Shown here: piece after piece, positions 5,265 to 59,424 of the stretch
How the letters are laid out: every line of letters starts with the position of its first letter
Numbering within the stretch: the stretch's first letter is position 1
NCBI GenBank assembly: GCA_965218395.1
Contig: OZ244620.1
Span: 1,413,268-1,477,267 of the forward strand
DNA: 64,000 bases
DNA from: an uncultured Candidatus Binatia bacterium
GTDB taxonomy: Bacteria; Desulfobacterota; Binatia; Bin18
Direction: 5' to 3'
Notes under the pieces: model-generated
Databases searched by the model: none
Told to the model about the DNA's origin: nothing
Seen by the model: the letters and a program-made list of their open reading frames with translations, nothing else
Program-made: the position numbers and the translations under genes

Positions 5265-8126
5265 CTAGGCCAGGGCTTGCGTAATGGTCTCGCGCAGGGT
5301 TTGCAAGCCGGCGTGCACGTCCGGTCCGAGGTGCACGCGTAGCGCCCGCCGTCCCCGTTCGGCCAGCACCGCAAAGTCGCCTTGGGCCTGGAAGCGTTTC
5401 AGCGTACCAAAACTGTAACCCTGGCCGGGAATGTCCAGGTCGTTGGCGTCGTCTGACGTAATCTGGAGAAACACGCCGGAGTTGGGACCGCCCTTATGCA
5501 GTTGGCCGGTGGAATGCAGGAAGCGTGGCCCAAAACCGAGGGTGGTGGCCACGCTCTTCGCGTCCCGGACGGCGCGGCGCAGGGCTTGCAATTCGGCGCA
5601 GGTTGCCTCGTTCATTTCAATATAGGCATTAATGGCAAAATAATCGCCGGCCTGAATCCGCCCGAGATGCGCGCCAAGCAGGGCTACCGCGTCCTGGCAG
5701 GCTGCTGCTTGCAGAGCTTGCGTATTTGCTGCATCCGAGAAGAAGCGCAGCCCCCGGTCTGCTAAAAACGGCGTCTCGTCCGGCACCTGGCCGGTCTCTT
5801 CAAACGTCGCGGTCAGTTGTCGGGTGGCCCTTTTACTGGCTTCCACGTCCGGCTGGTTAAAGGCGTGAATCCCGAGCAGGGCGCTGGCCACGGCCGTCGC
5901 CATCTCCCAGCGGAAAAATTCCTGGCCCAGGCTGAGCGTGTCTTCGAGACTGATACGCACGACCGGCTGGCCGGCTTTTTCGAGCGCGTCCATAGCCGCA
6001 TCCTGCTCGGCCGCAGGCGCGCTGTTGAGTCGAATATAGATAAAGAGCCGATCCCGGCCATAGACCTCGGGCGGACCCAGGGTCTCGGCGTCAATCGGGA
6101 TAAGCCCCTGCCCCTGCTTGCCGGTCGATTCGGCGATGAGCTGCTCCAGCCACGCGCCTAGGGCGTCGATGCCCGGCGAGGTCACGAGCGTCACTTTGTC
6201 TCGGCCGTGTTGCGCCAGGGTGCCCATAATCGTTCCCAGCGTGACACCGGGATTGACCTCGGGCGGCACACTCGCCGAGCAGGCCTGGACCATCAGGGCG
6301 GAACTGTCCAGGAAACGCTGGACATCGAGGCCCATCAGGGCAGCCGGGCCCATGCCAAAATTCGACAGGGCCGAATACCGGCCGCCGATGCTTGGCACCC
6401 CCGACAAGATGGAACGGAACTGACGCTGTTCGGCAAACTGTTGGAGCGGGCTGTCGGGATCGGTAATGGCGATGAACCGCGCACCGGCTTTGTCCGCGCC
6501 AAGAGCCTGGACGACTTGGTCAAAGAAATATTGCGTGAAGACATTCGGCTCGGTCGTCCCACCCGACTTTGAGGAGACAATAAACAGCGTCTTCCTAGGA
6601 TCGATTTTTTGCGCACAGGCTCTGACTTGAGCCGGCACAGTCGAGTCGAGAACGAGGAGTTCAGGGCGGCCGTCCAGCACGCCGAAGGTGCGTTTCAGAA
6701 CCTCCGGGCACAGGCTCGAACCGCCCATGCCAAGCAGGAGGATATGCTGAAAGTCACCGGCCTTGATCTCTTCGGCGAGTTGAATGAGGGGGAGAATGTT
6801 CGTCCGCTGCGCCTCCACGATATCGAGCCAACCAAGCCACTGATTCTCGTCCTTTCCAGACCAGAGCGCCGGGTCCTTGTGCCATAAGCGCCGAACTTTC
6901 CCCTGTGTCCGCCAGTCTTTCAGGCTGGCTTCGACGAGAGCGGACGCACCGTCCAGGCTATACGTCTGCTGGGCCAGCTCACTGCCCAGCATGGCCTGGC
7001 GCTTGCGCTCGATTGAACCGAGCAGAGTGTCAAACGGTTCAACAAATTTACGCACGGCTTCATCCAGGAGTTGGCCGGTCGCAGCTTGCAGAGACACTCC
7101 GACCTCAGCCAAGGTACTGATGATAGTCTGTGCGTTCGCCAGGTTTTCTTCCCAGTTGGCGGTCAGCCGTGACTCGACCCGGCCGCCATCCCGGAAGGCC
7201 GTAAAGGTTTCGCCCGGCATGGTATTGACGGTGTCCGGGCCAATCAGTTCGTCAACATAGAGCGTCTTGGAATAGCGCGGGTTTTTCGTGCTCGTGCTGG
7301 CCCATAAGAGGCGTTGCGGTCGCGCGCCGTGTGCTTCGAGAGCCCGCCAGCGCTCGCTGGCCATCAGATTTTTATACGCGGCATAGGCAATTTTTGCGTT
7401 CGCAATGGCGACTTTTCCGAGCAGGTTTTCGATTGTGGCCTTTTGCTCGGCACTGTCTGCGGTCTCAATAGCCTGGCTGAGCTTTTGGTCGATCAGGGTG
7501 TCGATGCGACTGATGAAAAAGCTGGCGACACTCGCCACCGTGCTCAGGTCTCCACCCCTTTGAGAGAGTTGCTCCAAGCCGTCCAAATACGCCTCGGCGA
7601 CCGCTTCATACGCTTCGACCGCAAAGAGCAGGGTCACATTGATATTGATTCCTTCACCAATTAACTGGGCGATGGCCGGCACGCCGGCTTGGGTGGCCGG
7701 CACCTTAATCATGACATTGGCCCGATCGACCATTGTGTACAGACGCCGGGCTTCTTCGAGGGTCGCTTGGGTGTCATGGGCCAGATAGGGCGAGACCTCA
7801 AGGCTGACATAGCCGTCTTTGCCCTCGGTTTTCCGATACACCTCAAACAACACGTCCGCGGCCAGCCGGATGTCCTGAATCGCCAGACGCTCATACACGT
7901 CCAGGGCCGACCCCACCCCCTGTTCGACCAGGGCCTGCATGGGTTGATCGTAATCGGCACTACCCGTCAGCGCCTTCTCAAAAATAGCCGGATTCGACGT
8001 CATGCCGAGCAGGCCGTCGTGCTCGACCATGGCCCGGAGATCACCGGAAGTGATAAGGCTGCGCTGGATATTGTCATACCAGATACTTTGACCCAATTGC
8101 TGGACAGCAACCAATGGATTTTCCAT
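5265..8126 (-). CDS. Bifunctional transaldolase / glucose-6-phosphate isomerase (fused Tal-Pgi)
   Basis: Start trimmed to MENPLVA (ATG at 8126). N-terminal about 380 aa is transaldolase-like (SIWYDN, TSNPAIF, active-site Lys region). C-terminal about 550 aa carries PGI motifs (ILLLGMGGSSL, SKSGGTTE). Single uninterrupted ORF. Confidence 0.85.
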   Translation of the reverse strand: MENPLVAVQQLGQSIWYDNIQRSLITSGDLRAMVEHDGLLGMTSNPAIFEKALTGSADYDQPMQALVEQGVGSALDVYERLAIQDIRLAADVLFEVYRKTEGKDGYVSLEVSPYLAHDTQATLEEARRLYTMVDRANVMIKVPATQAGVPAIAQLIGEGININVTLLFAVEAYEAVAEAYLDGLEQLSQRGGDLSTVASVASFFISRIDTLIDQKLSQAIETADSAEQKATIENLLGKVAIANAKIAYAAYKNLMASERWRALEAHGARPQRLLWASTSTKNPRYSKTLYVDELIGPDTVNTMPGETFTAFRDGGRVESRLTANWEENLANAQTIISTLAEVGVSLQAATGQLLDEAVRKFVEPFDTLLGSIERKRQAMLGSELAQQTYSLDGASALVEASLKDWRTQGKVRRLWHKDPALWSGKDENQWLGWLDIVEAQRTNILPLIQLAEEIKAGDFQHILLLGMGGSSLCPEVLKRTFGVLDGRPELLVLDSTVPAQVRACAQKIDPRKTLFIVSSKSGGTTEPNVFTQYFFDQVVQALGADKAGARFIAITDPDSPLQQFAEQRQFRSILSGVPSIGGRYSALSNFGMGPAALMGLDVQRFLDSSALMVQACSASVPPEVNPGVTLGTIMGTLAQHGRDKVTLVTSPGIDALGAWLEQLIAESTGKQGQGLIPIDAETLGPPEVYGRDRLFIYIRLNSAPAAEQDAAMDALEKAGQPVVRISLEDTLSLGQEFFRWEMATAVASALLGIHAFNQPDVEASKRATRQLTATFEETGQVPDETPFLADRGLRFFSDAANTQALQAAACQDAVALLGAHLGRIQAGDYFAINAYIEMNEATCAELQALRRAVRDAKSVATTLGFGPRFLHSTGQLHKGGPNSGVFLQITSDDANDLDIPGQGYSFGTLKRFQAQGDFAVLAERGRRALRVHLGPDVHAGLQTLRETITQALA

Positions 8127-8290
8127 GCTCTTCCTCGTCCTTCCCCTCACCCCAGGCACTCATTCCTACCGGGTAGGGCCTGAATGGCATTGGCGATCCG
8201 CACGACCCACCCTCTTCTAGCATAGCTCCTTTCGCGTCGGCAAAGGGGGCGGGGATGTCGGCTTACGCCTCGCCAGCCTGCCCGCTTGAG

Positions 8291-8333
8291 CTGACGATTG
8301 GACTGGGCCATACTGAGCCAGTCCAATCGTCAG
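8291..8333. promoter_or_regulatory. Perfect 16-bp inverted repeat (ctgacgattggactgg / ccagtccaatcgtcag), candidate operator or hairpin
   Basis: Read directly from the sequence. Arms at 8291-8306 and 8318-8333 with an 11-nt loop, about 40 bp upstream of the hicB start, in the divergent region between tal-pgi and hicB. Confidence 0.45.
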
Positions 8334-8372
8334 GACCAATGCCCGTCCATACCGACCCAGGGGGAGCACCCA

Positions 8373-8585
8373 ATGAGCGCGGAATACACTATCGTTATCG
8401 AGAAGGATGAAGACGGCTATTACGTGGGGAGTGTTCCCGCCCTTCCGGGCTGCCATACTCAGGGCTCGTCCATTGACCAGTTGCTCGAACGGATGCAAGA
8501 GGCAATCGCACTCTGGCTTGAGGTTGAGGGTGAAGACGCGTCAAGTCCACTTGAACTGGTCGGTGTACAAAGAATCTCTGTATGA
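8373..8585 (+). CDS. hicB: HicB family antitoxin
   Basis: Start trimmed to MSAEYTIV. EYTIVIEKDEDGYYVGSVPALPGCHTQG is the HicB/UPF0150 RNase H-like fold signature. 4-bp overlap (ATGA) with the downstream hicA. Confidence 0.65.
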   Translation: MSAEYTIVIEKDEDGYYVGSVPALPGCHTQGSSIDQLLERMQEAIALWLEVEGEDASSPLELVGVQRISV

Positions 8586-8812
8586 CCAGACTGCCGCGCG
8601 TGACGGGTGCCCATGTGATCCGCTCTCTGCGGAAGGTCGGTTTTGAGGTTGTGAGGCAACGTGGGAGTCATGTGATTATGAAGCACCCGGATGGACGCGG
8701 CACGGTTGTGCCCATTCATAGTGGTGAAACGATCGGCGTTGGCCTTCTGTCCAAGATTCAGAAAGACATCGAGATTGATCGGGAGGCATTCATTGGTCTG
8801 CTCGGCAATTGA
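8582..8812 (+). CDS. hicA: HicA family toxin (mRNA interferase)
   Basis: 76 aa ORF. LRKVGFEVVRQRGSHVIMKHPDGR..VVPIH is the HicA/YcfA motif with the catalytic His. Confidence 0.65.
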   Translation: MTRLPRVTGAHVIRSLRKVGFEVVRQRGSHVIMKHPDGRGTVVPIHSGETIGVGLLSKIQKDIEIDREAFIGLLGN

Positions 8813-8890
8813 TACAGCGCCCATCGTTAATACCGGCGTTAATATCGAGCGGGAGAGGGCTGTCGGATTACGCTACGCCGACCTTCGGGG

Positions 8891-9805
8891 CTATAAAATT
8901 GGCAACTTCCGAGCAGTCTCCTGGCCTCGATTGAACCAGCCATTATCAGGGCCGATCATGAGAAATCCATCGACGTAGCTTATTTCTCCTCCATACCTGT
9001 CTCCCAAGGCAATCGATCCTAAAATTTTTAATATGCATCGTTCGCGAGTATTCAGCTTTCCTTCTTCATCTTTTCCTAAAGCTCGATCACGCTCTAAAGA
9101 GAACAATCCAACCGAACCAAAAACACCGCTACCACCGCCACAGTCGTAACATTCCACCATTTCGACCCCCGATGGGGAAGTCGCAACGTGTGAGTACATA
9201 AAGAACTCTCTTCCAGAACCTACCCATTCCACCCACGATCTTCCATTACGATCATTGATGTTAAATTCGCCATAGAATCGATTACTTCGATTTGTAGAAA
9301 CAATATCCACACCGACTATTGTTTCTGTGCTGTCAGATATCCATCCTAGCAACTCGCGAATTATCAAGGGATTAACGAACTCCTCACGGCAAAACGAATA
9401 CCGGCTTTGCTCAAGAGAAGATTGCATACCACCTTCCGATGATCCCAGAACATAGCTCACATTGCGAACGGCAAGACGTTCGATGTCCTCTTTGGATGCG
9501 AGATTCTGAAGAGTGTCGGCAATTTCTTTTGGTATAGAGGACACTTCAAGCGACTTCGCACATTTTTCATACCAAGCATCTCGTGCTTCTTGAATCTGCT
9601 TGCGCATCCGCGGATTGGCTCCGTACGTCACGTGACAGGAAGGACAGAGTGGGGCGGCGTTATCCTCGGTATCCGCTCCTCCTTCTACCTGCGGAATGAT
9701 GTGATGGACCTCCACGGGGAAGGAGTGGCATATGCAGCACTTATTCAGTGCGCGTTTACGAACCTTCGTTTTTAGTGCTTCTGAGAAAGGCATCTTAAAC
9801 TCCAT
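8891..9805 (-). CDS. HNH endonuclease domain protein with uncharacterised about 230-aa C-terminal domain
   Basis: N-terminal CCICH...HHIIP...DN..PLCPSCH matches the HNH motif; the rest has no family I recognise. Local GC is clearly lower than its flanks. Start choice (MEFKMPF) uncertain. Confidence 0.55.
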   Translation of the reverse strand: MEFKMPFSEALKTKVRKRALNKCCICHSFPVEVHHIIPQVEGGADTEDNAAPLCPSCHVTYGANPRMRKQIQEARDAWYEKCAKSLEVSSIPKEIADTLQNLASKEDIERLAVRNVSYVLGSSEGGMQSSLEQSRYSFCREEFVNPLIIRELLGWISDSTETIVGVDIVSTNRSNRFYGEFNINDRNGRSWVEWVGSGREFFMYSHVATSPSGVEMVECYDCGGGSGVFGSVGLFSLERDRALGKDEEGKLNTRERCILKILGSIALGDRYGGEISYVDGFLMIGPDNGWFNRGQETARKLPIL

Positions 9806-9887
9806 GAATGATGTCGAACGGGGTCTGACCGAGTACGGCTTGGAAAGCAAAGCCTGTGCAGGCTAGAAGCCTGCGCTCCCAGGGGGC

Positions 9888-10368: not shown

Positions 10369-11412
10369 TCAGGCAAACTCAATAATCGTCTTGAGGGAGT
10401 CTCGCGCCTCAGCCGCGTTACGATAGGCAGCGTGGAGTTGATCAAATGGGAAACGATGGGTGATGAATTGCGCGGCCGTAATGACGCCGTCCTGAACCAA
10501 CCGGAGCGCCTCGCGGGTATCGTTCGGGCCGCAGGAATAGCTGGGGATGAGGCGGACTTCATTAAAATACAGATCATTGGGCGAGAATGTCAGCGTGTCG
10601 TCCGGTTTACTGGCCGTAAACAGCACCACGGTTCCGCCCTTGGCCGCACAGCGCAGGCCGAGCTGCATCGCTTCGATCGAACCCGGTCCGACAATGACGA
10701 CCTCAGCCATCTCGCCCTGAGTATATTCCCGCAGCGCGTCCTCGACATTGCCGTCTTTCACAGCCTGCGGATTCAGCGCGAGATCGGCCCCCAGTTCACG
10801 CGCCTTTGTGCAGCGATAGGGGACGAAATCTGTGCCAATGATGCTTCGCGCTCCGGCATGTTTCGCCAGGGCAACGTGCAACTGCCCCATGATGCCGAGT
10901 CCGATCACAAAGACGCTGTCGCCGGCCTGAAACCCCGAGCGTCGCAGGGACTTGACCGCACAGGCCGTGGGTTCAACCAGAGAGCCGTCGGCAAACGACA
11001 TCTGCTCAGGCAGGCGTAAGGTATCACCGGACAAATTGTCCTTGGGCACCACGAAGTATTCAGCCATGCCGCCCGGAACAATCTTCGTCGCCCGCCAGGT
11101 TGGACACTGTACGAACTCGCCGCGTTGACACGCCCGGCACGAAAAACACGGGGCGTGATGATGGACGAACACCCGGTCGCCGGGCTGAAAGTCGTCCACT
11201 CCCTCACCGATTGCAACGATTTCACCCGCGGGTTCATGCCCAAACACCAGCGGGGCCTTTTTCTTCATATACCAGCCCATGACATCGCCCGAGCAAATCC
11301 CGCACGTCCGGGTCTTCACTAATGCCTCGCCCGGCCCGACAGCGGGAATGGGATCGTCTTCAAAACGAATATCGGTTGAGTCGTACAAACGAGCGACTTT
11401 CATGCTGGGCAT
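10369..11412 (-). CDS. Zinc-dependent alcohol dehydrogenase (MDR superfamily)
   Basis: GHEPAGEIV Zn-binding motif, structural-Zn Cys cluster (CFSCRACQRGEFVQC), GLGIMG NAD-binding glycine motif. Confidence 0.8.
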   Translation of the reverse strand: MPSMKVARLYDSTDIRFEDDPIPAVGPGEALVKTRTCGICSGDVMGWYMKKKAPLVFGHEPAGEIVAIGEGVDDFQPGDRVFVHHHAPCFSCRACQRGEFVQCPTWRATKIVPGGMAEYFVVPKDNLSGDTLRLPEQMSFADGSLVEPTACAVKSLRRSGFQAGDSVFVIGLGIMGQLHVALAKHAGARSIIGTDFVPYRCTKARELGADLALNPQAVKDGNVEDALREYTQGEMAEVVIVGPGSIEAMQLGLRCAAKGGTVVLFTASKPDDTLTFSPNDLYFNEVRLIPSYSCGPNDTREALRLVQDGVITAAQFITHRFPFDQLHAAYRNAAEARDSLKTIIEFA

Positions 11413-11530
11413 AGTGACAGCGGCTTCCTTTCTGCTGAGCGAACCTGGGACCATTATGCCAGGAGAGGATTTCGCGGCAAGCCGGACTGAGTCCTTGCGA
11501 AATCACTCGAAGGGAGGTTATACTTTTAGT

Positions 11531-11767
11531 ATGAAAACGGCAATCTCAATCCCTGATTCTGTTTACACGGAAGCGGAACGCCTCGCCCAACACCTCGGAA
11601 AATCTCGCAGTCAGTTGTATAGTGAGGCGGTTGCGGAATATGTCGCCCGTCACGATACCGAGACGCTTACAGAGGCGATGAACAAGGTGTGTGACGCTGT
11701 TGATGCCCATTCCGACCCTGCCTTTTCATCCGTGACTCGACGCGTTCTCGAACAGAGCGAATGGTAG
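11531..11767 (+). CDS. Putative antitoxin of MazEF-like pair
   Basis: 79 aa. ATG at 11531 sits inside a longer ORF-track ORF. Immediately upstream of and overlapping (7 bp) a MazF/PemK gene. Basic N-terminus with beta-strand character. Confidence 0.45.
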   Translation: MKTAISIPDSVYTEAERLAQHLGKSRSQLYSEAVAEYVARHDTETLTEAMNKVCDAVDAHSDPAFSSVTRRVLEQSEW

Positions 11768-29154: not shown

Positions 29155-29386
29155 AGACACGCCCACTCCCTGGCTCAAAACGGTGCGCAGCAATCTATCT
29201 TGCCTGTCCGCACAGCGTCAACCAAGCCGGCGTAACGGCGTCCGAATCGTGGCTTCTATATCGATGAGTTTGTCGCCCAGGTAAGAGGGCACGCGCCCCG
29301 TTTCGGGCAGTCGTCATTGAAGGATTGAGGGCGGATTTCGAGAACGGGGTTGAACACTTGCGTCTCAACGCCTATTACCGCTCGGC

Positions 29387-30421
29387 TTAATGTTGAATTG
29401 TTCGGGGATGGATCGGGTGCCGTCCTCGCCTTCCCTCGGCATGGTCAATTCCATATATGATCTTCTGGGCGAGAAAACGAAAATCACTGTAACAATCTCC
29501 GACCGCTTGCATACGCGCACCGAAAGCACCATCCGCTGGTTTCAGCAGGAACATGGGCTTGTTTGCTTCCTGTGCCAGGGGCATGAGCGAGCGATAGTTT
29601 TTCAGCTGCGCTAGTAGATGCTCGTCGCTTTCAAGCGGCGGCGTCGCGGGATCATTCTGCTTCAGAACGGCCCGCCGATATTCCGCTGGTATCCTTTTAA
29701 TCCATCTTTGAAATGCCTGCACCGGACGGTCCAACCGGACGGCGTGGCGCATGACGATATAGCCGAGTGGCTGCATGGCACCGGAGGGCAAATCGATGTC
29801 CAGGTCTTCCGGCTTTTCCTCAATGCGTTTTGCCCACGCCTTTCTCCAATCCCGCAAGGTTGGCCCGACGTTTCCCAAACCGTGCAGCGAGAACAAATCG
29901 GGCGCAAGCGGAATGACTACATAGTCACAGGCTATTAGCGCCGCCCGGTTAATCGCTCCGAGATTCGGCCCGACGTCTATCAGTGCCAAGTCGGCTTTGA
30001 ACGTCTCGTTTGCACCGTCTACTAAACGCGCGAAGGCGGTCGTCACGCGAAAGGCTCTTTCTTCCCTATCCAGACATTTCGACCACCGCTCCGATAGCTC
30101 TCCCTCACGCTTGGAAAGGGCGAGGTTGCCGACCAACAGGCCGATCCGTTCTCCGATTTTTTCGATATGAGGGTGTGCGGCAATGTCTCCTGTTCCCCTG
30201 AAGAGCGGAGCAATATCATCGTCTACGGTCTTCCTGTGCGCCTCCTCCCATAATTGCTCAAGCCTGCCTTCGTTCAGAAACATCCCACTCAGATTAGCCT
30301 GCGGGTCAAAGTCGGCGGCGACGACGCGATAGTCCAGTTCACTGAACATCCAGGCGAGGTGGTAGACCAGGGAAGTCTTTCCCACACCGCCTGTATTATT
30401 GAAAAACGCGACCGTTTTCAT
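29387..30421 (-). CDS. ParA/MinD-like deviant Walker-A ATPase with about 90-aa C-terminal extension
   Basis: NNTGGVGKTSL deviant Walker A, DFDPQANLS, DVGPNLGAINR motifs. 344 aa, longer than partition ParA. 4-bp overlap with the upstream gene. Local GC about 52%. Confidence 0.7.
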   Translation of the reverse strand: MKTVAFFNNTGGVGKTSLVYHLAWMFSELDYRVVAADFDPQANLSGMFLNEGRLEQLWEEAHRKTVDDDIAPLFRGTGDIAAHPHIEKIGERIGLLVGNLALSKREGELSERWSKCLDREERAFRVTTAFARLVDGANETFKADLALIDVGPNLGAINRAALIACDYVVIPLAPDLFSLHGLGNVGPTLRDWRKAWAKRIEEKPEDLDIDLPSGAMQPLGYIVMRHAVRLDRPVQAFQRWIKRIPAEYRRAVLKQNDPATPPLESDEHLLAQLKNYRSLMPLAQEANKPMFLLKPADGAFGARMQAVGDCYSDFRFLAQKIIYGIDHAEGRRGRHPIHPRTIQH

Positions 30422-31608
30422 GGCTTCTTCCGTATTCTCACAAAAACGAGCGTCTCCTGAATATCGAACTCGGGAAGCGGGTTGCCGTTCGCGACCAATG
30501 CCCGTCGCGCTGTGGGGATGCCGATACCGAAACGCTGCATGAATCCCATATTTTTCATTGCCTCGGCAATGGTCGGATTGCGGTAGGCGGTGACATCCGG
30601 CTTCCCGAAGTTCTCTTTTGTTACCACCCCATACACCGAGCCAGGGTTACTGATTTCTATGTTGTCCGCGAACCACGTGACCCGCACGGGGGTAGTCGAA
30701 TTTTCGTAGTTCCTGTGAATGACCGCATTACGGGTGAGTTCGCGTAGCGCCTCAAAGGGATAGTCCGGCTCCTCAACATGCCTCTCCCCTTGGGTATGCA
30801 GGGCGGTTGCTATGTTCAGTTTCAGCAGACGGTCCACTTCGCGCAGTTGATCTGACAGGGGACCGGAGAGCTCAGCCTGGTCAAGAATATCGTCCGTAAC
30901 CTCGTTTCCGGCATGCCGGACAAACTGAATATACGCGCCCGGAAACCAATAGCGTGGGTCTTTCCCCAGCATGAGTATTGCCGTCACCGTCGGCATACCG
31001 TCCCGCGTCGTCAGACGTAACGCCCGCATTTGTTCTTCCAAGCTGCGGTTATTCTCTTCGAGCACCTCCGGCGAGACGGCAGCGGGAAGATATTCATTTT
31101 CAAACCGCCGTCTGTCCAAATCGTCTTCTACGGACGAACCCTGCACGCCTTGGGCATCATAGGGCAGATTGCCCCAGCGTCTTTTCTCGGTCAGGCGGCG
31201 TTCTTCTTCCGCGGTAGCTTGGGCACGTCTTGGCCCGACGCGAATCCAACATCGACCATCGACTTTGACCGGCGGGTTATCCGAAGGCTCTACTTGTATC
31301 ACGGCGACGTCGCAGTCGTTCAGCCTTCGTTTTCCAACCTCCATACTCGGAAACGGAAGTATCTTGCCGTCAGTTTTCAACCCGCCAAGAGTCTGTAACA
31401 ATCCGTCGTCAATCGTTAAGTCAGCACAACTGCCATCGTCCTTTATGCCGATGAAGATTAAGCCGGGCTTCTGGTGAGCGGGCAGGTCGTTGGCAAAGGC
31501 GCATATTGCTTTTCGGAATTTGTCCAGATCATTGGTCGATTCGGTAAACTCCACACAATCGCTTTCGCCGTTATTGAGGACGCGGGTCAGTTCATCAGAA
31601 GTGAACAT
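30418..31608 (-). CDS. AlbA_2 (Schlafen-like divergent-AAA) + HATPase_c_4 domain protein
   Basis: N-terminus L.NGESD.VEF..S......KAICAFAND..GLIFIGI.DDG matches the AlbA_2 domain. C-terminus LRELTRNAVIHRNYENSTTPVRVTWFADNIEISNPG matches the HATPase_c_4 GHKL-like ATPase. Lower GC than flanks. Confidence 0.7.
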   Translation of the reverse strand: MFTSDELTRVLNNGESDCVEFTESTNDLDKFRKAICAFANDLPAHQKPGLIFIGIKDDGSCADLTIDDGLLQTLGGLKTDGKILPFPSMEVGKRRLNDCDVAVIQVEPSDNPPVKVDGRCWIRVGPRRAQATAEEERRLTEKRRWGNLPYDAQGVQGSSVEDDLDRRRFENEYLPAAVSPEVLEENNRSLEEQMRALRLTTRDGMPTVTAILMLGKDPRYWFPGAYIQFVRHAGNEVTDDILDQAELSGPLSDQLREVDRLLKLNIATALHTQGERHVEEPDYPFEALRELTRNAVIHRNYENSTTPVRVTWFADNIEISNPGSVYGVVTKENFGKPDVTAYRNPTIAEAMKNMGFMQRFGIGIPTARRALVANGNPLPEFDIQETLVFVRIRKKP

Positions 31609-31720
31609 ATCTTGACTCTGCTTCTGGCTGCTATGTCGAATGAGTACAAAGACTTACTGTTCATCGCCACGTATGGCGACGCCTTTTGTCTGGCCTTCGG
31701 ACGGCAAGACAAAAGGCGGC

Positions 31721-41451: not shown

Positions 41452-41715
41452 ATGCCCCAAAGACTGCCTCAGTTGCTCAAAGAATTAACGCCGCAAGAAC
41501 AGGCACAAGTCGAAACCTTTGCGGCCTTCATCCTCGCGCGCCGAAAACTCCAGCAGCCCCAACTCCTCACGAACGATCTTTCAGTCCAAGAACTCACTCA
41601 GCTTGTTGCTTCAGCAGGGAGCTTTGAGTGGCTCGAAGAGGAGGAGGATATTTATTCCCCGGATGATGGTGAGGCAGTGCAGTGGCCCAGTCCCCCGTCA
41701 AACGAGGAAGCGTAG
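41452..41715 (+). CDS. Hypothetical acidic small protein, putative antitoxin of downstream MazF-like gene
   Basis: 87 aa, acidic C-terminus (EEEEDIYSPDDGE). 34-bp overlap with the downstream toxin gene. Confidence 0.35.
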   Translation: MPQRLPQLLKELTPQEQAQVETFAAFILARRKLQQPQLLTNDLSVQELTQLVASAGSFEWLEEEEDIYSPDDGEAVQWPSPPSNEEA

Positions 41716-42044
41716 TTCTGATACGCTATCCATTTACGAACCTGACCGGAGCAAAGGTTCGACCCGCACTCGTTCTGACACCTGATTCTCTGCTGTCTCG
41801 TCTTGATGATGTCCTATGCCTCTTCATATCATCCTCGCTCCCCGAAGACCTTCTCCCGACCGATCTTGTCCTGAACGCCGAGCATCCTTCTTTTTCCAAA
41901 ACAGGGTTGAGGCGGCGCTCCGTGTTGAGAGCACACAAATTAGCCTTGCTTCAAAAATCCCTTGTGCTGCGCCAGCTAGGAGAAATCGAGCAGCCACTCC
42001 TTGATAAAATCAATCAGCGGTTACGGGTGGCTTTAGGGTTATAG
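41682..42044 (+). CDS. MazF/PemK-like toxin
   Basis: RGSVVLIRYPFTNLTGAKVRPALVLTPD is a PemK-like signature. Confidence 0.6.
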   Translation: MAQSPVKRGSVVLIRYPFTNLTGAKVRPALVLTPDSLLSRLDDVLCLFISSSLPEDLLPTDLVLNAEHPSFSKTGLRRRSVLRAHKLALLQKSLVLRQLGEIEQPLLDKINQRLRVALGL

Positions 42045-57785: not shown

Positions 57786-58673
57786 ATGACGACCGTCCTT
57801 AAAACAACCGCCGAGACCGGTATAGACCTGCCGACTCGGCAGCATCCTGTTGTGACCCTGCATGGGGACGCGCGCGACCTTATTCGGCAGTTCCCGAATG
57901 ATACGTTTCAATGCGTCATCACGTCGCCTCCGTATTGGGGCGTAAGAGACTACGGCATTGAAAATCAGATCGGTGCCGAGCCGGACTTATTTCAATACAT
58001 TGAACACCTTGTCGGCGTCTTTCGTGAGGTTCGTAGGGTGTTGAAGTCGGATGGCACGTTCTGGCTCAATATCGGCAATACCTATTCGTCCGGTGGCAGA
58101 AAATGGCGGGATACAGATGATAAGAATAAAGGCCGGGCCATGTCGTACCGCCCGCCAACCCCACCCGGACTGAAGAAAAAGGATCTGATTGGAGTCGCCT
58201 GGTTATTAGCCCTGGAATGTCAAAAAGACGGTTGGTATCTACGCAATGACATTATCTGGCACAAGCCCAATTGCCAGCCGGAAAGCGTCAAAGACAGGTT
58301 TACGGTGTCCCACGAATATCTGTTCATGTTTTCAAAATCCGAGCGGTACTATTTTGACCAGGAAGAAATTAAGGAGAACACGACACAGGGCAACGGACGG
58401 AAAAACAGGCGAACGGTCTGGTCGATAAATACGGAGCCCTGTCCGGAGGCGCATTTTGCGGTCTTTCCCAGAGCCTTGATTCGACCCTGCATTGTCGCCG
58501 GCAGCCGTAAAGACGATATTATCCTTGACCCTTTTTATGGCGCCGGCACGGTCGGGATTGTGACACAAGAACTCGGGCGGCGCTGTATCGGTATAGAACT
58601 GAATAGTGAGTATCTGGACATCGCAGAGCGGCGGGCGGCAATGGTGCAAGCGGCCCTCATTCCTGAGGTATGA
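57786..58673 (+). CDS. Site-specific DNA methyltransferase, beta-class N4-cytosine/N6-adenine (type II R-M methylase)
   Basis: Motif IV ITSPPYW precedes motif I DPFYGAGTVG (beta-class circular permutation). 295 aa. Confidence 0.8.
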   Translation: MTTVLKTTAETGIDLPTRQHPVVTLHGDARDLIRQFPNDTFQCVITSPPYWGVRDYGIENQIGAEPDLFQYIEHLVGVFREVRRVLKSDGTFWLNIGNTYSSGGRKWRDTDDKNKGRAMSYRPPTPPGLKKKDLIGVAWLLALECQKDGWYLRNDIIWHKPNCQPESVKDRFTVSHEYLFMFSKSERYYFDQEEIKENTTQGNGRKNRRTVWSINTEPCPEAHFAVFPRALIRPCIVAGSRKDDIILDPFYGAGTVGIVTQELGRRCIGIELNSEYLDIAERRAAMVQAALIPEV

Positions 58674-58680
58674 AAAATTC

Positions 58681-59424
58681 CTACTGCGCGTGAACTCGAC
58701 AGGCATCTTTACTCAAGTTCTTGATCTGTAATTTTCTCTCGCCGCCACCGTCAAAGCATAGACTGAAAACAGTCTGGCCGTCCTCATTACGAACATAACA
58801 GTAGCCGGGCTTTGGGAACTGCTTGCTGCCTAATTTCATTTCCAACTGACCACCATTGGCGAGTTTGAGAATATCTATTGGGATTTCAACAAGTTCATAT
58901 TTCCAGCGCGGTGCCTTTCTGACAGCCCGCAGACTCAGTATCTTCTCATAGCACTCCAGATGGTTGAGAAACTGGCCGCGCAATCCTTCCAGATCGTTCG
59001 GGTCATCACCCCAATCTCCTCTCCCCAGTTCCATGAATTTGCTGATCCACAAGGTGCCTTCCTTAATATTTTTATCCGTCTGCGTCTTCAATGATAATTG
59101 CACCCCATCAACGGTAGCGTCATGGCCCGGATTGCCTTTTGGAGCCAGTTCAGCCTTATGCCCGCTCATCTTCAGGACATGGACGAGAACGTATTCAAAC
59201 TTATCCTTACTAAAGGGTTCTGACGAGAAACTATGATGAACCCGCAGGGCATCTCCAAAGTTTTGCAGGGTGGTTTCATCGAATAAATCACTCCCATTCA
59301 ATATGAATGTGTGATCGGCAGAGAAAACAGAGACCACACGCCGAATCCAGTGGAGTTGGCCAGCGGTCAATGCTGGGATTGAGCGTACTAATGATTCTAT
59401 AAGCTGCCGTTTATCGGTGTTCAT
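58681..59424 (-). CDS. Type II restriction endonuclease (SmaI/Cfr9I-like by motif recall)
   Basis: Convergent with and 8 bp from the methyltransferase stop. GC about 48% against about 62% background. Motifs NPGHDATVDGV..LKT, SKQFPKPGYCYV, FSLCFDGGGERKLQIK resemble my recollection of the SmaI-family REase. Not verifiable here. Confidence 0.5.
   Translation of the reverse strand: MNTDKRQLIESLVRSIPALTAGQLHWIRRVVSVFSADHTFILNGSDLFDETTLQNFGDALRVHHSFSSEPFSKDKFEYVLVHVLKMSGHKAELAPKGNPGHDATVDGVQLSLKTQTDKNIKEGTLWISKFMELGRGDWGDDPNDLEGLRGQFLNHLECYEKILSLRAVRKAPRWKYELVEIPIDILKLANGGQLEMKLGSKQFPKPGYCYVRNEDGQTVFSLCFDGGGERKLQIKNLSKDACRVHAQ

What the first reader, a model, noticed from the sequence alone, without database searches (positions are those of the whole stretch)
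29387..31608. Lower-GC two-gene ATPase operon (AlbA_2/HATPase_c_4 + extended ParA/MinD-like): candidate undescribed defence module
Two translationally coupled genes (ATGA overlap at 30418-30421) sit in a patch of about 52% GC inside about 62% GC chromosome. They lie between housekeeping-type genes (fused ETF; SnoaL-like).

The first gene combines a Schlafen-like AlbA_2 N-terminal domain with a GHKL-type HATPase_c_4 C-terminus. This architecture recurs in defence islands and Abi-type systems.

The second is a deviant-Walker-A ParA/MinD ATPase with an about 90-aa C-terminal extension. No ParB, origin or plasmid context is present, so a partition role is unlikely.

I do not know of a described defence system with exactly this pairing. 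The compositional anomaly, tight coupling, and a window already rich in other defence/TA modules make a sensor-effector or NTPase-switch system plausible.
Basis: partly seen in the sequence, partly recalled or inferred. Interest (0 to 1): 0.78.

Follow-up and report, generated by a model that had tools for sequence, protein, structure and literature searches.

The report
Schlafen-nuclease plus ParA-like ATPase defence cassette
Two overlapping genes, a Schlafen-type RNA-cutting enzyme with its own ATP switch and an unusual ParA-like ATPase, form a conserved, horizontally exchanged cassette that often sits inside known anti-phage systems and has not been described as a unit, although this genome's copy carries a mutation in a key ATPase residue.

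Summary
The two genes are real. Both lie on the minus strand: A at 31608-30418 (396 aa) and B at 30421-29387 (344 aa), sharing an ATGA overlap.

A is a stand-alone "Schlatpase" (SLFN_AlbA_2 nuclease plus GHKL ATPase PF13749). B is a ParA/Soj-fold ATPase of the uncharacterised DIP2308 (PDB 3PG5) subfamily.

The pairing is not chance:
- About 74 of 80 metagenome loci carrying a B homologue have an A gene directly upstream.
- In 63 of 64 complete pairs the genes overlap or lie within 8 bp.
- Flanking genes differ between phyla.
- Both genes are under purifying selection (dN/dS 0.10-0.17).
- The cassette's synonymous divergence disagrees with its flanks, which indicates recombinational exchange.

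Relatives are embedded in BREX and Hma operons. Others lie next to type IIG/DrmMI or type III methylases, Dsr1 and TIR genes. More distant B-type ATPases in prophage contigs are coupled or fused to SIR2, RelA/SpoT, HEPN or RES effectors.

PADLOC v2 has no model for B, and no paper I could search describes the pair.

Most likely this is an abortive-infection or toxin-antitoxin-like defence module, with A as tRNA-nuclease effector and B as an ATP-dependent switch or sensor.

- The GC dip is modest (54.8% against 59.6%).
- There is no 90-aa C-terminal extension.
- This copy alone has Thr in place of the signature Walker-A lysine.

The parts
30418..31608 (-). Gene A: 396-aa stand-alone Schlatpase. 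It has an N-terminal Schlafen/AlbA_2 nuclease domain, a linker, and a C-terminal GHKL-type ATPase (PF13749).
   Evidence: ORF and translation. Pfam. Collinear with the SLFN-GHKL part of the PADLOC SLFN-pAgo model (residues 18-380, E 1.7e-14). Foldseek hits to 3LMM, histidine-kinase/PDK ATP-binding domains and SLFN11/12/13. More than 3300 homologues; the top 120 are 69-97% identical and 392-404 aa long (mostly 394-399).
31543..31566 (-). Predicted nuclease motif of A: E15-x4-E20-x-T22. This is the Schlafen E(x)4(D/E)xK motif with Thr in place of Lys.
   Evidence: E20 is invariant and E15 is at least 90% conserved in alignments A2/A3. The motif is defined for SLFN-pAgo in bioRxiv 10.64898/2026.05.29.728809.
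31489..31503 (-). CAFAN (residues 36-40), the family's version of the SAFAN 'Schlafen box'.
   Evidence: C36, A39 and N40 are invariant in both alignments; A37 and F38 are each invariant in one and at least 90% conserved in the other. Box as described.
31438..31440 (-). D57, an invariant acidic residue. It is the candidate third metal ligand of the nuclease site.
   Evidence: Invariant in A2 and A3. Its assignment as a metal ligand is an inference by analogy with the SLFN E/E/D triad.
30706..30741 (-). GHKL N-box region of A (E290-L-T-R-N294-A-V-I-H298-R-N-Y301).
   Evidence: N294, A295, H298 and Y301 are invariant in both alignments; E290 is invariant in A3 and at least 90% conserved in A2. 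Assignment as the Bergerat-fold N-box is an inference.
30520..30648 (-). Glycine-rich ATP-lid region of the GHKL domain, from N321-P-G323...G327 to G355-F...F360-G361-x-G363.
   Evidence: P322, G323, G355, F356, F360 and G361 are invariant or nearly so. The region lies within the HATPase_c_4 match at 307-390.
30418..30421 (-). ATGA overlap: the stop codon of A lies inside the start codon of B (translational coupling).
   Evidence: Sequence. The same 4-bp overlap occurs in 44 of 64 complete pairs elsewhere, and 63 of 64 overlap or lie within 8 bp.
29387..30421 (-). Gene B: 344-aa ParA/Soj-fold ATPase of the DIP2308 (PDB 3PG5) subfamily.
   Evidence: Profile match to 3PG5 over the full length, E 3e-37. 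AF2 model pLDDT 85; best Foldseek hit 3PG5 (E 4e-17), then Soj/ParA/McdA. 468 clusters at 50% identity reach E<=1e-30 in an exhaustive search.
30371..30400 (-). Walker A of B (N8-N-T10-G-G-V-G-K15-T-S17). Codon 30392-30394 (aca) encodes Thr where 119 of 120 homologues have the signature Lys and one has Arg.
30299..30313 (-). Walker A' region of B (D37-F-D39-P-Q41).
   Evidence: D37, D39 and Q41 are invariant even across the distant SIR2-, RelA- and HEPN-linked relatives.
29963..29989 (-). Walker B region of B (L145-A-L-I-D149-V-G-P-N153).
   Evidence: D149 and P152 are invariant across subfamilies.
29387..29431 (-). Disordered C-terminal tail of B (residues 331-344 plus the stop codon). It is absent from most homologues.
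   Evidence: pLDDT below 50. Alignment A1 shows most homologues end near residue 329.
31609..31720 (-). Upstream intergenic region of 112 bp between the SnoaL gene and A. It holds a hairpin just after the SnoaL stop and presumably the cassette's own promoter.
   Evidence: Sequence. Terminator-like hairpins at 31729-31713 and 31664-31679, and no sigma-70 consensus match. The promoter is an inference.
29194..29386 (-). Downstream intergenic region between B and the ETF gene. A promoter-like site for ETF lies at 29221-29192.
   Evidence: In the relative L002 this spacer is about 940 bp.

Best explanation
The pair is a self-contained, horizontally exchanged conflict module of the abortive-infection / toxin-antitoxin type.

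**Gene A is the effector.** It is a Schlafen-family nuclease. By analogy with characterised prokaryotic Schlafens, it cuts tRNA once its own GHKL ATPase domain has driven oligomerisation.

**Gene B is the regulatory partner.** It is a ParA-type ATPase that switches between monomer and ATP-bound dimer. I propose that it:
- binds A in 1:1 stoichiometry, which the translational coupling would ensure;
- keeps A silent in uninfected cells;
- licenses A when an infection cue changes its nucleotide, dimer or DNA-bound state.

**The cue is unknown.** Two observations point to a DNA-related signal, such as foreign or unmodified DNA, nucleoid damage, or an anti-restriction DNA mimic:
- ParA-type dimers typically bind DNA non-specifically;
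- the module is so often nested in methylation-based systems (BREX, Hma, type IIG/III).

**What is shown**
- The domain identities.
- Conservation of the catalytic motifs.
- Obligate pairing and coupling of the two genes.
- Purifying selection on both.
- Horizontal exchange of the cassette.
- The defence-system neighbourhoods.
- Swapping of effectors among B relatives.

**What is inferred**
- tRNA as the substrate.
- Physical contact between A and B.
- The direction of control.
- The trigger.

**This genome's copy.** B carries K10T at the signature lysine. The switch may therefore be attenuated or locked here.
For: **1. Domains**
- Pfam calls for A and B.
- A is collinear with the Schlafen-GHKL module of SLFN-pAgo. 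In RzAgo, the Schlafen domain cleaves tRNA and GHKL ATP binding drives tetramerisation (paper read).
- A second experimentally studied prokaryotic Schlafen, Cash, also cleaves tRNA (PMC13462974).

**2. Active sites are kept**
- In A: E15/E20, CAFAN, D57, and the GHKL N-box and G-boxes are invariant or nearly so.
- In B: Walker A, A' and B are kept in the family.

**3. Obligate pairing**
- An A-type gene lies directly upstream of B in about 74 of 80 metagenome loci.
- The same holds in all long-contig contexts.
- 44 of 64 complete pairs have the 4-bp overlap, and 63 of 64 overlap or lie within 8 bp.
- The A and B distance matrices correlate (Mantel r 0.54, p<=0.001).
- Fused A-B proteins exist (P0267, P0353).

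**4. Selection and mobility**
- dN/dS is 0.10-0.17, as for the flanking genes.
- Against L001, cassette dS is 0.10-0.15 while flank dS is 0.28-0.42.
- Against L002, cassette dS is 0.64-1.26 while flank dS is 0.35-0.54.
- Flanks are unrelated in other phyla.

**5. Defence context**
- BREX: BrxC-PglX-[A-B]-PglZ (L091) and PglX-[A-B]-BrxC-PglZ (L067).
- Hma: HmaA-[A-B]-HmaB(-HmaC) across L055, L071, L081, L060 and L011.
- A DrmMI/type IIG methylase directly downstream (L003, L172), followed by Dsr1 in L172.
- An AriA-like ATPase plus a type III methylase upstream (L083).
- TIR and HigB genes nearby (L174).

**6. Swappable effectors around the same ATPase subfamily**
- 22 prophage-contig loci have a RelA_SpoT gene directly downstream (14 clusters at 90% identity).
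- 18 have a SIR2_2 gene (15 clusters at 90% identity).
- 2 have a HEPN gene. Most of these are within 0-9 bp or overlapping.
- A methylase-ParA-SIR2 cassette occurs in Salmonella Infantis.
- A ParA-like-RES fusion exists.
- In P22-like phages the gene sits just downstream of the c2 repressor gene, next to the PADLOC candidate PDC-S43.

**7. Precedent**
- A single ParA/AAA_31-type ATPase, GiPD474, experimentally protects against FO1, T4 and Alf5 (PMC12724215).
Against: - No experiment exists on any member of the A-B pair.
- This copy's neighbours are housekeeping genes, as are those of several close relatives.
- 65-90% identity across phyla is unusually conservative for defence genes, and fits a selfish addiction module equally well.
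- The K of the Schlafen E(x)4(D/E)xK motif is Thr in this family.
- PADLOC v2 gives no system-level hit.
- B in this genome lacks the signature lysine. About 7% of the 120 close homologues have lost the P-loop lysine, so ATPase activity may be dispensable or the modules may be decaying.
- One relative has A split by a frameshift (L173).
- A-B contact was not modelled. The A model is of low confidence (pLDDT 65).
- Homology between B and GiPD474 could not be tested.
- The direction of control (inhibitor or activator) is not resolved by any result.
Confidence: 0.6

Rival explanations
1. A pure toxin-antitoxin addiction module. A is a growth-arresting nuclease toxin and B is its proteinaceous antitoxin. 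The cassette persists because losing it kills or arrests the cell, and it plays no dedicated role against phage.
For: - The genes are tightly overlapping and co-inherited.
- The cassette spreads horizontally and inserts among housekeeping genes.
- Sequence conservation is very high.
- B relatives sit in the usual antitoxin position, upstream of classical toxin domains: RelA/SpoT toxSAS-like, HEPN and SIR2. One is fused to a RES domain.
- TA genes lie nearby in L174 and L039.
Against: - Both proteins are much larger than typical type II TA components.
- A carries its own ATP-dependent activation domain.
- The pair is repeatedly embedded inside BREX and Hma operons and in prophage immunity regions, which points to phage conflict.
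- P-loop mutants of B coexist with an intact A (window, L003, L172). This would be hazardous if ATP-bound B were the neutralising form.
- The two readings are not mutually exclusive, since many TA modules defend against phage.
Confidence: 0.2
2. An accessory or regulatory component of methylation-based defence systems (BREX, Hma, type IIG/III RM), with no activity of its own. Copies lacking such a system, like the one in this window, would be orphaned remnants.
For: - At least 10 of about 38 long loci have the pair inside, or directly abutting, a methyltransferase-based system. In some the stop and start codons overlap the neighbouring system genes.
- Methylase-ParA-SIR2 cassettes occur.
- A published survey notes Schlafen-ATPase proteins tightly associated with BREX and RM (PMC13462974).
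Against: - Most close relatives, including three Binatia genomes, have no methylase within several kb.
- Despite that, both genes stay under purifying selection with dN/dS 0.10-0.17.
- The host systems differ (BREX, Hma, type IIG, type III). That pattern fits an independent cassette using a common insertion hot spot better than a dedicated subunit.
Confidence: 0.1
3. A housekeeping positioning or partition system. B acts as a ParA/McdA-like ATPase that positions a cargo on the nucleoid, with A as its adaptor.
For: - B has a complete ParA/Soj fold and the family keeps the deviant Walker A.
- ParA-like ATPases are normally paired with a small adaptor encoded next door.
Against: - No ParB, parS, centromere-like repeats or cargo genes were seen in any context.
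- The pair is absent from PLSDB plasmids at more than 32% identity.
- The partner is a nuclease-ATPase, not an adaptor, and is replaced by SIR2, RelA, HEPN or RES toxin domains in relatives.
- The flanks are variable.
- NCBIfam partition models score far below their cut-offs.
Confidence: 0.04
4. In this particular genome the module is inactive or attenuated, a recently disabled copy. This reading is compatible with any of the functions above.
For: - B has K10T at the signature lysine, unique among 120 homologues, plus two further departures from residues conserved at 95% or more (Q180H, D275N). A has only one such departure.
- In ParA/MinD/Soj proteins this lysine is needed for ATP-dependent dimerisation and hydrolysis (established knowledge of the family).
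- The nearest relative, L001 (94% identical), still has Lys.
Against: - Both reading frames are intact.
- dN/dS against L001 is low (0.13-0.17).
- Some functional ParA-like ATPases lack the signature lysine; cyanobacterial McdA is an example (own knowledge), and McdA structures are among the fold matches.
- The change is a single base and could be an assembly error.
Confidence: 0.3

Closest known systems
Schlatpase supradomain (SLFN_AlbA_2 + GHKL ATPase PF13749), as in SLFN-pAgo RzAgo (bioRxiv 10.64898/2026.05.29.728809)
   Same: - Same two Pfam domains in the same order, collinear with the PADLOC SLFN-pAgo model.
- The acidic nuclease residues, the SAFAN-type box and the GHKL motifs are conserved.
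- The paper notes that most Schlatpase proteins are small stand-alone proteins like gene A.
   Different: - A has no Argonaute core and no C-terminal HTH.
- The motif lysine is Thr.
- The paper reports no conserved partner for SLFN-pAgo and never mentions a ParA-type partner. Here the partner is near-obligate.
DIP2308 of Corynebacterium diphtheriae (PDB 3PG5), an uncharacterised extended ParA-like ATPase
   Same: - Full-length profile match (E 3e-37) and best structural match for B.
- It shares the family motifs FFNNKGGVGKT, DxDPQxN, GPxLG and the conserved C-terminal region.
- In C. epidermidicanis its orthologue lies in an MmeI / GmrSD / Fic island.
   Different: - Only about 25% identical to B.
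- It stands alone, without a Schlatpase or other effector gene next to it in the genomes examined.
- No function has been assigned.
GiPD474, a Gifsy-1 prophage ParA/AAA_31-type ATPase with experimentally shown anti-phage activity (PMC12724215)
   Same: - ParA/MinD/Soj-like P-loop ATPase of about 360 aa with a GGVGKT Walker A and an AAA_31 annotation.
- Horizontally spread.
- Located in a prophage immunity region, as are the distant B relatives in P22-like phages.
   Different: - It acts as a single gene with no effector partner.
- The ST160 orf23 cluster (357-368 aa) did not list its accession.
PARIS (AriA ATPase + AriB TOPRIM effector)
   Same: - It works similarly on paper: a two-gene ATPase-plus-nuclease abortive-infection system whose effector attacks tRNA.
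- It is often nested in BREX loci and is triggered by an anti-restriction DNA mimic (own knowledge of the literature).
- An AriA-like gene sits beside the pair in L083.
   Different: - No sequence relationship. Neither A nor B matches the AriA/AriB or AbiL models in PADLOC.
- The ATPase is ABC/OLD-type rather than ParA-type, and the nuclease is TOPRIM rather than Schlafen.
Canonical ParA/Soj/MinD partition and positioning ATPases
   Same: - Same fold over the whole length (Foldseek TM-score 0.70-0.76 normalised to Soj, ParA or McdA).
- The family keeps the KGGxxGK[ST] deviant Walker A and the Walker A' and B aspartates.
   Different: - B is about 80 residues longer because of internal insertions.
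- HMMER aligns solved Soj/ParA sequences only to short segments of B, mostly the first ~46 residues.
- There is no ParB/parS partner.
- NCBIfam partition models score far below their cut-offs.
- The partners are toxin-type enzymes.
Cash (CRISPR-associated Schlafen) and other defence-linked prokaryotic Schlafens (PMC13462974)
   Same: - A Schlafen nuclease acts as tRNA-cleaving effector under the control of a nucleotide-binding regulatory module.
- That paper lists Schlafen-ATPase clusters tightly associated with BREX and RM.
   Different: - Cash is regulated in cis by a Csx15 cA4 sensor.
- Here regulation would come from an intrinsic GHKL domain plus a separate ParA-type protein.
- No CRISPR association was seen.

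Membership tests
Schlatpase (stand-alone Schlafen-GHKL protein) | SLFN_AlbA_2 (PF04326) followed by HATPase_c_4 (PF13749) in one polypeptide | tested here: met
   Both domains score above the Pfam gathering cut-offs (53.9 and 61.3 bits). The protein is collinear with the SLFN-pAgo N-terminal module.
Schlatpase (stand-alone Schlafen-GHKL protein) | Schlafen nuclease motif E(x)4(D/E)xK plus the SAFAN box | tested here: inconclusive
   The motif reads E15-x4-E20-x-T22, so the acidic residues are kept but Lys is Thr in most of the family. The box reads CAFAN: C36, A39 and N40 are invariant, and A37 and F38 are at least 90% conserved.
Schlatpase (stand-alone Schlafen-GHKL protein) | ATP-dependent oligomerisation and tRNA cleavage | not testable with these tools
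   Shown only for RzAgo and Cash in the papers read.
SLFN-pAgo | Argonaute MID/PIWI core fused to the Schlatpase module (proteins of 1071-1187 aa) | tested here: not met
   A is 396 aa and ends right after the GHKL domain.
ParABS partition system | ParA/Soj fold with the deviant Walker A KGGxxGK[ST] | tested here: inconclusive
   The fold criterion is met. The motif is present in 119 of 120 homologues, but this copy has Thr at the signature Lys.
ParABS partition system | Adjacent parB or centromere-binding gene and a parS site; plasmid or origin-proximal location | tested here: not met
   The neighbours are ETF and SnoaL genes. No ParB family appeared in any annotated relative's locus. There are no close homologues on PLSDB plasmids. 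NCBIfam partition models score 19-54 bits against cut-offs of 180-725.
DIP2308 / 3PG5-type extended ParA-like ATPases (working name) | Full-length similarity, including the conserved insertions and the C-terminal ...SLMPxAQxxxKPxFxLxxxDG... region | tested here: met
   Profile match to 3PG5 over positions 1-324 of 330, E 3e-37. The motifs are shared across the SIR2-, RelA-, HEPN- and RES-linked members.
BREX / Hma / DISARM-type methylation-based defence | Core genes (PglX, PglZ, BrxC; HmaA/B/C; DrmMI) in the same operon | tested here: not met
   None lies next to the window copy. They are present around relatives L091, L067, L055, L071, L081, L060, L011, L003 and L172.
PARIS / AbiL | AriA (ABC/OLD-type ATPase) and AriB (DUF4435 TOPRIM) profile matches | tested here: not met
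   Neither A nor B gave an AriA, AriB or AbiL hit in PADLOC.
Any system or candidate in PADLOC-DB v2.0.0 | Significant full-length profile match of both proteins to one system | tested here: not met
   A matches only pAgo-associated Schlafen/PNTD models. B matches only the P-loop of PDC-M28B (E 0.003, 38 residues).
Type II toxin-antitoxin module | Toxicity of one product, neutralised by direct binding of the co-transcribed partner | not testable with these tools
   Only the architecture (an overlapping two-gene operon) and the toxin-type partner domains in relatives are consistent with it.
GiPD474-type single-gene ParA-like defence | Sequence homology to WP_000368620.1 and location in a prophage immunity region | not tested
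   The sequence was not retrievable here. The window copy is not in a prophage. Distant B relatives do lie in P22-like immunity regions.

The most novel reading that the evidence does not exclude
DIP2308-type ParA ATPases are a previously unrecognised, promiscuous regulatory hub of bacterial immunity. A single ATP-driven dimerisation and DNA-binding switch would have been recruited repeatedly to gate at least five unrelated suicide effectors:
- Schlafen-GHKL tRNases;
- SIR2 NADases;
- RES NADases;
- RelA/SpoT toxSAS enzymes;
- HEPN RNases.

The Schlafen-ParA cassette would be its most widespread form. It would act as a second line that fires when methylation-based systems (BREX, Hma, type IIG/III) are bypassed or inhibited, with the ParA-type protein sensing a DNA-level cue such as unmodified invading DNA or an anti-restriction DNA mimic.
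Probability: 0.35. Interest if true: 0.85.

Novelty: new variant of a known kind. Interest (0 to 1): 0.72.

Why it matters
**A new regulator class.** If the reading is right, it adds a mechanistically new kind of regulator to the known NTPase-plus-effector logic of bacterial immunity. That regulator is a ParA/MinD-type dimerisation switch, so far known for DNA segregation and cargo positioning.

**Partners and context for orphan families.**
- It gives the large, mostly unstudied population of stand-alone Schlafen-GHKL proteins a defined partner. One survey counted 60,692 Schlatpase proteins in all.
- It gives an orphan solved structure (3PG5) a biological context.

**A widespread gap in annotation.**
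- The module has thousands of homologues, and the ATPase family has 468 clusters at 50% identity.
- PADLOC v2 does not detect it.
- It sits inside BREX and Hma operons, so it may explain part of the phenotypes ascribed to those systems.

**An evolutionary link.** Schlafen nucleases are also antiviral in mammals. A bacterial system that gates a Schlafen through a separate ATPase is therefore a tractable model for how Schlafen activity is licensed.

Tried and rejected
- **Partition locus.** Rejected. No ParB or parS was found, there are no plasmid homologues above 32% identity, and the NCBIfam partition models score far below their cut-offs.
- **A 90-aa C-terminal extension as a separate domain.** Rejected by the AF2 model and Foldseek. 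I therefore did not search with it separately.
- **A fresh island insertion in this genome.** Rejected.
  - Two other Binatia genomes carry the pair at the same SnoaL-ETF site.
  - The discordant dS values point to allele exchange at a fixed site instead.
- **DIP2308 (3PG5) and DIP2311 (3LMM) as a diverged A-B operon.** Both are best structural matches, to B and A respectively, and their locus tags are three apart. Followed up and not supported.
  - In another C. diphtheriae strain the genes after the ParA-like gene are VanZ, GH25 and YjeF, with no AlbA_2 gene.
  - The C. epidermidicanis orthologue also lacks one.
- **Phrann gp30 (antitoxin of the phage toxSAS gp29) as a ParA-like protein.** Nothing in the paper read says so, and no mycobacteriophage matched B.
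- **Per-locus PADLOC annotation of all flanks.**
  - A container alignment gave only family counts.
  - Concatenated flank proteins were abandoned, because greedy ORF calling in high-GC DNA produced many spurious ORFs and the batches exceeded the size limit.
- **Structure of A.** The alignment was too shallow, so the model is weak (pLDDT 65). Its fold matches are only domain-level support.
- **Promoter and terminator scan.** Nothing above chance.
- **Literature.** Ten searches found no description of ParA-like plus Schlafen, SIR2, RelA or BREX. Subscription-only papers were not searchable.

Full report
**1. The observation**

The ORF list shows two minus-strand ORFs. One is 30418-31608 (396 aa, called A here). 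The other is 29387-30421 (344 aa, called B here). A is therefore the upstream gene. Its TGA stop lies inside B's ATG, giving the ATGA at 30418-30421.

Pfam results:
- A: SLFN_AlbA_2 (residues 15-129) plus HATPase_c_4 (307-390).
- B: AAA_31 and CbiA.
- All four hits are above the gathering cut-offs.

The neighbours are a fused ETF, a SnoaL_4 protein, an epoxide hydrolase, FtsH, an ECF sigma factor and a HIT protein.

The GC dip is real but smaller than stated. The pair is at 54.8% against 59.6% for the window, which is the lowest 5% of equal-sized windows. The only other comparably low patches hold an HNH gene and a type II RM pair. A MazF-like toxin gene lies at 41682-42044. This genome therefore carries several small, compositionally deviant conflict cassettes set among housekeeping genes.

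The organism is most likely a Candidatus Binatia bacterium. Two Binatia MAG chromosomes share the whole neighbourhood.

**2. Corrections to the description**

The ParA-like protein has no 90-aa C-terminal extension.
- The AlphaFold model is confident (pLDDT 85, pTM 0.87).
- It shows the seven-strand ParA/Soj core running to residue about 273, followed by helices up to 332.
- Foldseek aligns Soj, ParA and McdA structures across about 325 columns, with TM-scores of 0.70-0.76 normalised to the targets.
- The extra length is therefore internal insertions plus a long terminal helix.
- Only residues 331-344 are a disordered tail, and most homologues lack it.

The family has a textbook deviant Walker A, FFNNKGGVGKTS. 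This copy has Thr at the signature lysine through a single base change (aca for aaa). It is unique among 120 close homologues, and the 94%-identical relative L001 keeps Lys.

**3. What the two proteins are**

*Protein A.* A is a stand-alone example of what a 2026 preprint names the Schlatpase supradomain, a Schlafen/AlbA_2 nuclease joined to a GHKL ATPase (PF13749).
- In the SLFN-pAgo protein RzAgo, the Schlafen domain cleaves tRNA.
- A second paper shows tRNA cleavage by CRISPR-associated Schlafens. It also lists Schlafen-ATPase clusters tightly associated with BREX and RM.
- A is collinear with the Schlafen-GHKL part of the PADLOC SLFN-pAgo model.
- A keeps E15, E20, the CAFAN box, D57 and the GHKL N-box and glycine boxes. 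The motif lysine is Thr.
- Sequence and fold searches point to 3LMM, histidine-kinase/PDK ATP-binding domains and SLFN11/12/13. The A model itself is weak.

*Protein B.* B belongs to a distinct, extended ParA-like subfamily.
- Its one solved member is the uncharacterised DIP2308 (3PG5). The profile match is E 3e-37 over the full length, and 3PG5 is the best fold match.
- Solved Soj/ParA sequences match the B profile only over short segments, mostly the first ~46 residues.
- An exhaustive HMMER scan finds 468 clusters at 50% identity with E<=1e-30.

**4. The pair is a unit**

Both proteins have thousands of homologues. The top 120 of each are 61-97% identical to the window proteins and nearly constant in length, and many come from the same contigs.

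Evidence for linkage:
- In seven long contigs from other lineages the same 395-398-aa A gene overlaps, or directly abuts, the B gene. An eighth (L173) carries A split by a frameshift. The flanks are unrelated: arginine biosynthesis, uvrA/ribosomal proteins, malate synthase, glycosyltransferase/MoaE and others.
- Of 80 metagenome loci found with a B profile (B 53-61% identical), about 74 have an A-type gene directly upstream. The exceptions are contig ends or a few different neighbours.
- Among 64 complete pairs, 44 have the 4-bp overlap and 63 overlap or lie within 8 bp.
- The A and B pairwise-identity matrices correlate (Mantel r 0.54, p<=0.001).
- Two representative proteins are A-B fusions. 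They could be real fusions or frameshift artefacts at the overlap.

**5. Selection and mobility**

Against the two Binatia relatives, dN/dS is 0.10-0.13 for A and 0.14-0.17 for B. Most flanking genes give 0.06-0.13, and HIT and the sigma factor give 0.1-0.4.

The cassette's synonymous divergence disagrees with its flanks in both directions:
- Against L001, cassette dS is 0.10-0.15 and flank dS is 0.28-0.42.
- Against L002, cassette dS is 0.64-1.26 and flank dS is 0.35-0.54.

The cassette occupies a fixed site in this lineage, but its alleles are exchanged by recombination. Between phyla it sits at unrelated sites. It is not found on PLSDB plasmids or in the phage genome collection at more than 32% identity.

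**6. Context of relatives**

PADLOC profiles identify the genes around many relatives as known defence genes.

| Locus or loci | Arrangement |
|---|---|
| L091 | BrxC-PglX-[A-B]-PglZ(-681-aa gene, not scanned) |
| L067 | PglX-[A-B]-BrxC-PglZ |
| L055, L071, L081 | HmaA-[A-B] |
| L071, L060, L011 | [A-B]-HmaB(-HmaC) |
| L003, L172 | [A-B] then a DrmMI/type IIG methylase, followed by Dsr1 in L172 |
| L083 | AriA-like ATPase and type III methylase, then [A-B] |
| L174 | TIR_2 and HigB nearby |

At least 11 of roughly 38 loci with usable flanks are inside or beside defence systems. The rest, including this window, have housekeeping flanks.

**7. The wider ATPase family**

In IMG/VR contigs, B relatives of 25-33% identity align over the whole length and share the family motifs. 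They are coupled to a downstream effector-type gene.

| Downstream partner | Loci | Clusters at 90% identity |
|---|---|---|
| RelA_SpoT | 22 | 14 |
| SIR2_2 | 18 | 15 |
| HEPN | 2 | not computed |

Further cases:
- One HEPN case is an unannotated ORF in a Pseudomonas Pf prophage, next to its att site.
- Salmonella Infantis carries a methylase-ParA-SIR2 cassette on more than 1000 contigs.
- In P22-like phages ST160 and SE1 the ATPase lies immediately downstream of the c2 repressor gene, on the same strand. It follows a DUF3024 gene that PADLOC lists as candidate PDC-S43. From my own knowledge, this is the slot that holds rexAB in lambda and bstA in BTP1.
- One representative is a ParA-like-RES fusion.
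- Some members stand alone. DIP2308 does so in C. diphtheriae. Its C. epidermidicanis orthologue lies in an MmeI/GmrSD/Fic island.
- A 2025 paper shows that a single ParA/AAA_31-type ATPase in the Gifsy-1 immunity region, GiPD474, protects Salmonella and E. coli against FO1, T4 and Alf5. I could not test its homology to B.

**8. Mechanism**

The pattern is one conserved NTPase with interchangeable suicide-type enzymes, tight coupling, horizontal spread and defence-system neighbourhoods. That is the signature of an abortive-infection or TA-like defence module.

I take A to be the effector and B to be the switch. Which way B acts is not settled.

About 7% of close homologues have lost the P-loop lysine, and this copy has lost the signature lysine, while A stays intact. 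This is easiest to reconcile with the ATP-bound dimer being the ON or licensing state. On that reading, ATPase-dead B is harmless (OFF) and not lethal.

ParA-type dimers usually bind DNA non-specifically. Together with the frequent nesting in methylation-based systems, this suggests a DNA-level cue, with PARIS in BREX loci as a functional analogy. This step is inference only.

**9. Novelty**

PADLOC v2 has no model for B-type ATPases and no system containing both proteins. None of ten full-text searches found a description of the pair or of ParA-like-SIR2, -RelA or -HEPN modules. The two 2026 Schlafen papers do not mention a ParA-type partner.

The component domains and the general logic are known. 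The partnership, and the ParA-type hub, appear to be undescribed. I rate it a new variant of a known kind, with the caveat that subscription-only literature and newer DefenseFinder models could not be checked.

**10. Verdict**

- Function remains unproven.
- This genome's copy may be attenuated by K10T.

Noticed in passing
window 30392-30394: Codon aca (Thr10) replaces the signature lysine of B's deviant Walker A. It is a single-base difference from aaa and is unique among 120 close homologues. B also departs from residues conserved at 95% or more at Q180H and D275N.
   Followed up: yes
window 57786-59424: A small type II restriction-modification cassette sits in a second low-GC patch (about 52-54%) between an amidohydrolase gene and a CoA-transferase gene. 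It comprises an N6_N4 DNA methylase (57786-58673, +) and a SmaI-family endonuclease (58681-59424, -).
   Followed up: partly
window 41452-42044: A PemK/MazF-like toxin gene lies at 41682-42044, overlapped at its start by an 87-aa ORF (41452-41715) in the antitoxin position.
   Followed up: partly
window 8217-9850: A third low-GC patch holds an HNH endonuclease gene (8891-9850, -) and two small ORFs without Pfam matches (8217-8498 and 8459-8824). It lies next to a fused transaldolase-phosphoglucose isomerase gene (5265-8159).
   Followed up: no
L008 6019-6546 (Pseudomonas Pf prophage AY324828, record positions about 408-935): An unannotated 175-aa ORF with a HEPN_RiboL-PSP domain overlaps by 8 bp the end of the annotated Soj-like Orf317. 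It lies next to the prophage att site.
   Followed up: partly
L007 4515-6068 (Salmonella phage ST160, orf24-orf23): A DUF3024 gene (full-length match to PADLOC candidate PDC-S43, E 2e-41) and a 357-aa ParA-like gene lie directly downstream of the c2 repressor gene, on the same strand. This is the position that holds exclusion or defence genes in other lambdoid phages.
   Followed up: partly
L170 4905-7919 (Salmonella Infantis NZ_CP148876): A three-gene cassette of DNA methyltransferase, ParA family protein and SIR2 family protein, with the last two overlapping by 4 bp. The ParA and SIR2 proteins each occur on more than 1000 contigs. The same methylase-ParA-SIR2 order is seen in L136 and L140.
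   Followed up: partly
P0267, P0353, P0339 (representative proteins): Single polypeptides combine Schlafen(+GHKL) with the ParA-like ATPase (731 and 690 aa), and the ParA-like ATPase with a RES domain (545 aa). In P0339 both Walker-A lysines are replaced.
   Followed up: partly
PDB 3PG5 (DIP2308) and 3LMM (DIP2311): The best solved-structure matches of B and A are two uncharacterised C. diphtheriae proteins whose locus tags are only three apart. In another C. diphtheriae strain and in C. epidermidicanis no AlbA_2 gene lies near the ParA-like gene, so this is not a conserved operon.
   Followed up: yes
L173 6816-8004; L003 10001-; L172 8001-: Signs of decay or tuning appear in relatives. A is split into two ORFs by a frameshift in L173. 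The P-loop lysine of B is replaced in L003 (KSGVGSTS) and in L172/P0035 (GGVGTTS), while A is intact in both.
   Followed up: partly
L002 10988-11927: In the second Binatia relative the spacer between B and the ETF gene is about 940 bp, against about 190 bp here. It holds an extra 148-aa minus-strand ORF (11312-11758) of unknown nature.
   Followed up: no
L094-L106 (IMG/VR contigs, B-like 36% identical): A group of near-identical viral contigs carries a B-like ATPase with no coupled effector. A 149-aa ORF lies 332 bp upstream and a 95-aa ORF lies 47 bp downstream, neither with Pfam matches.
   Followed up: no
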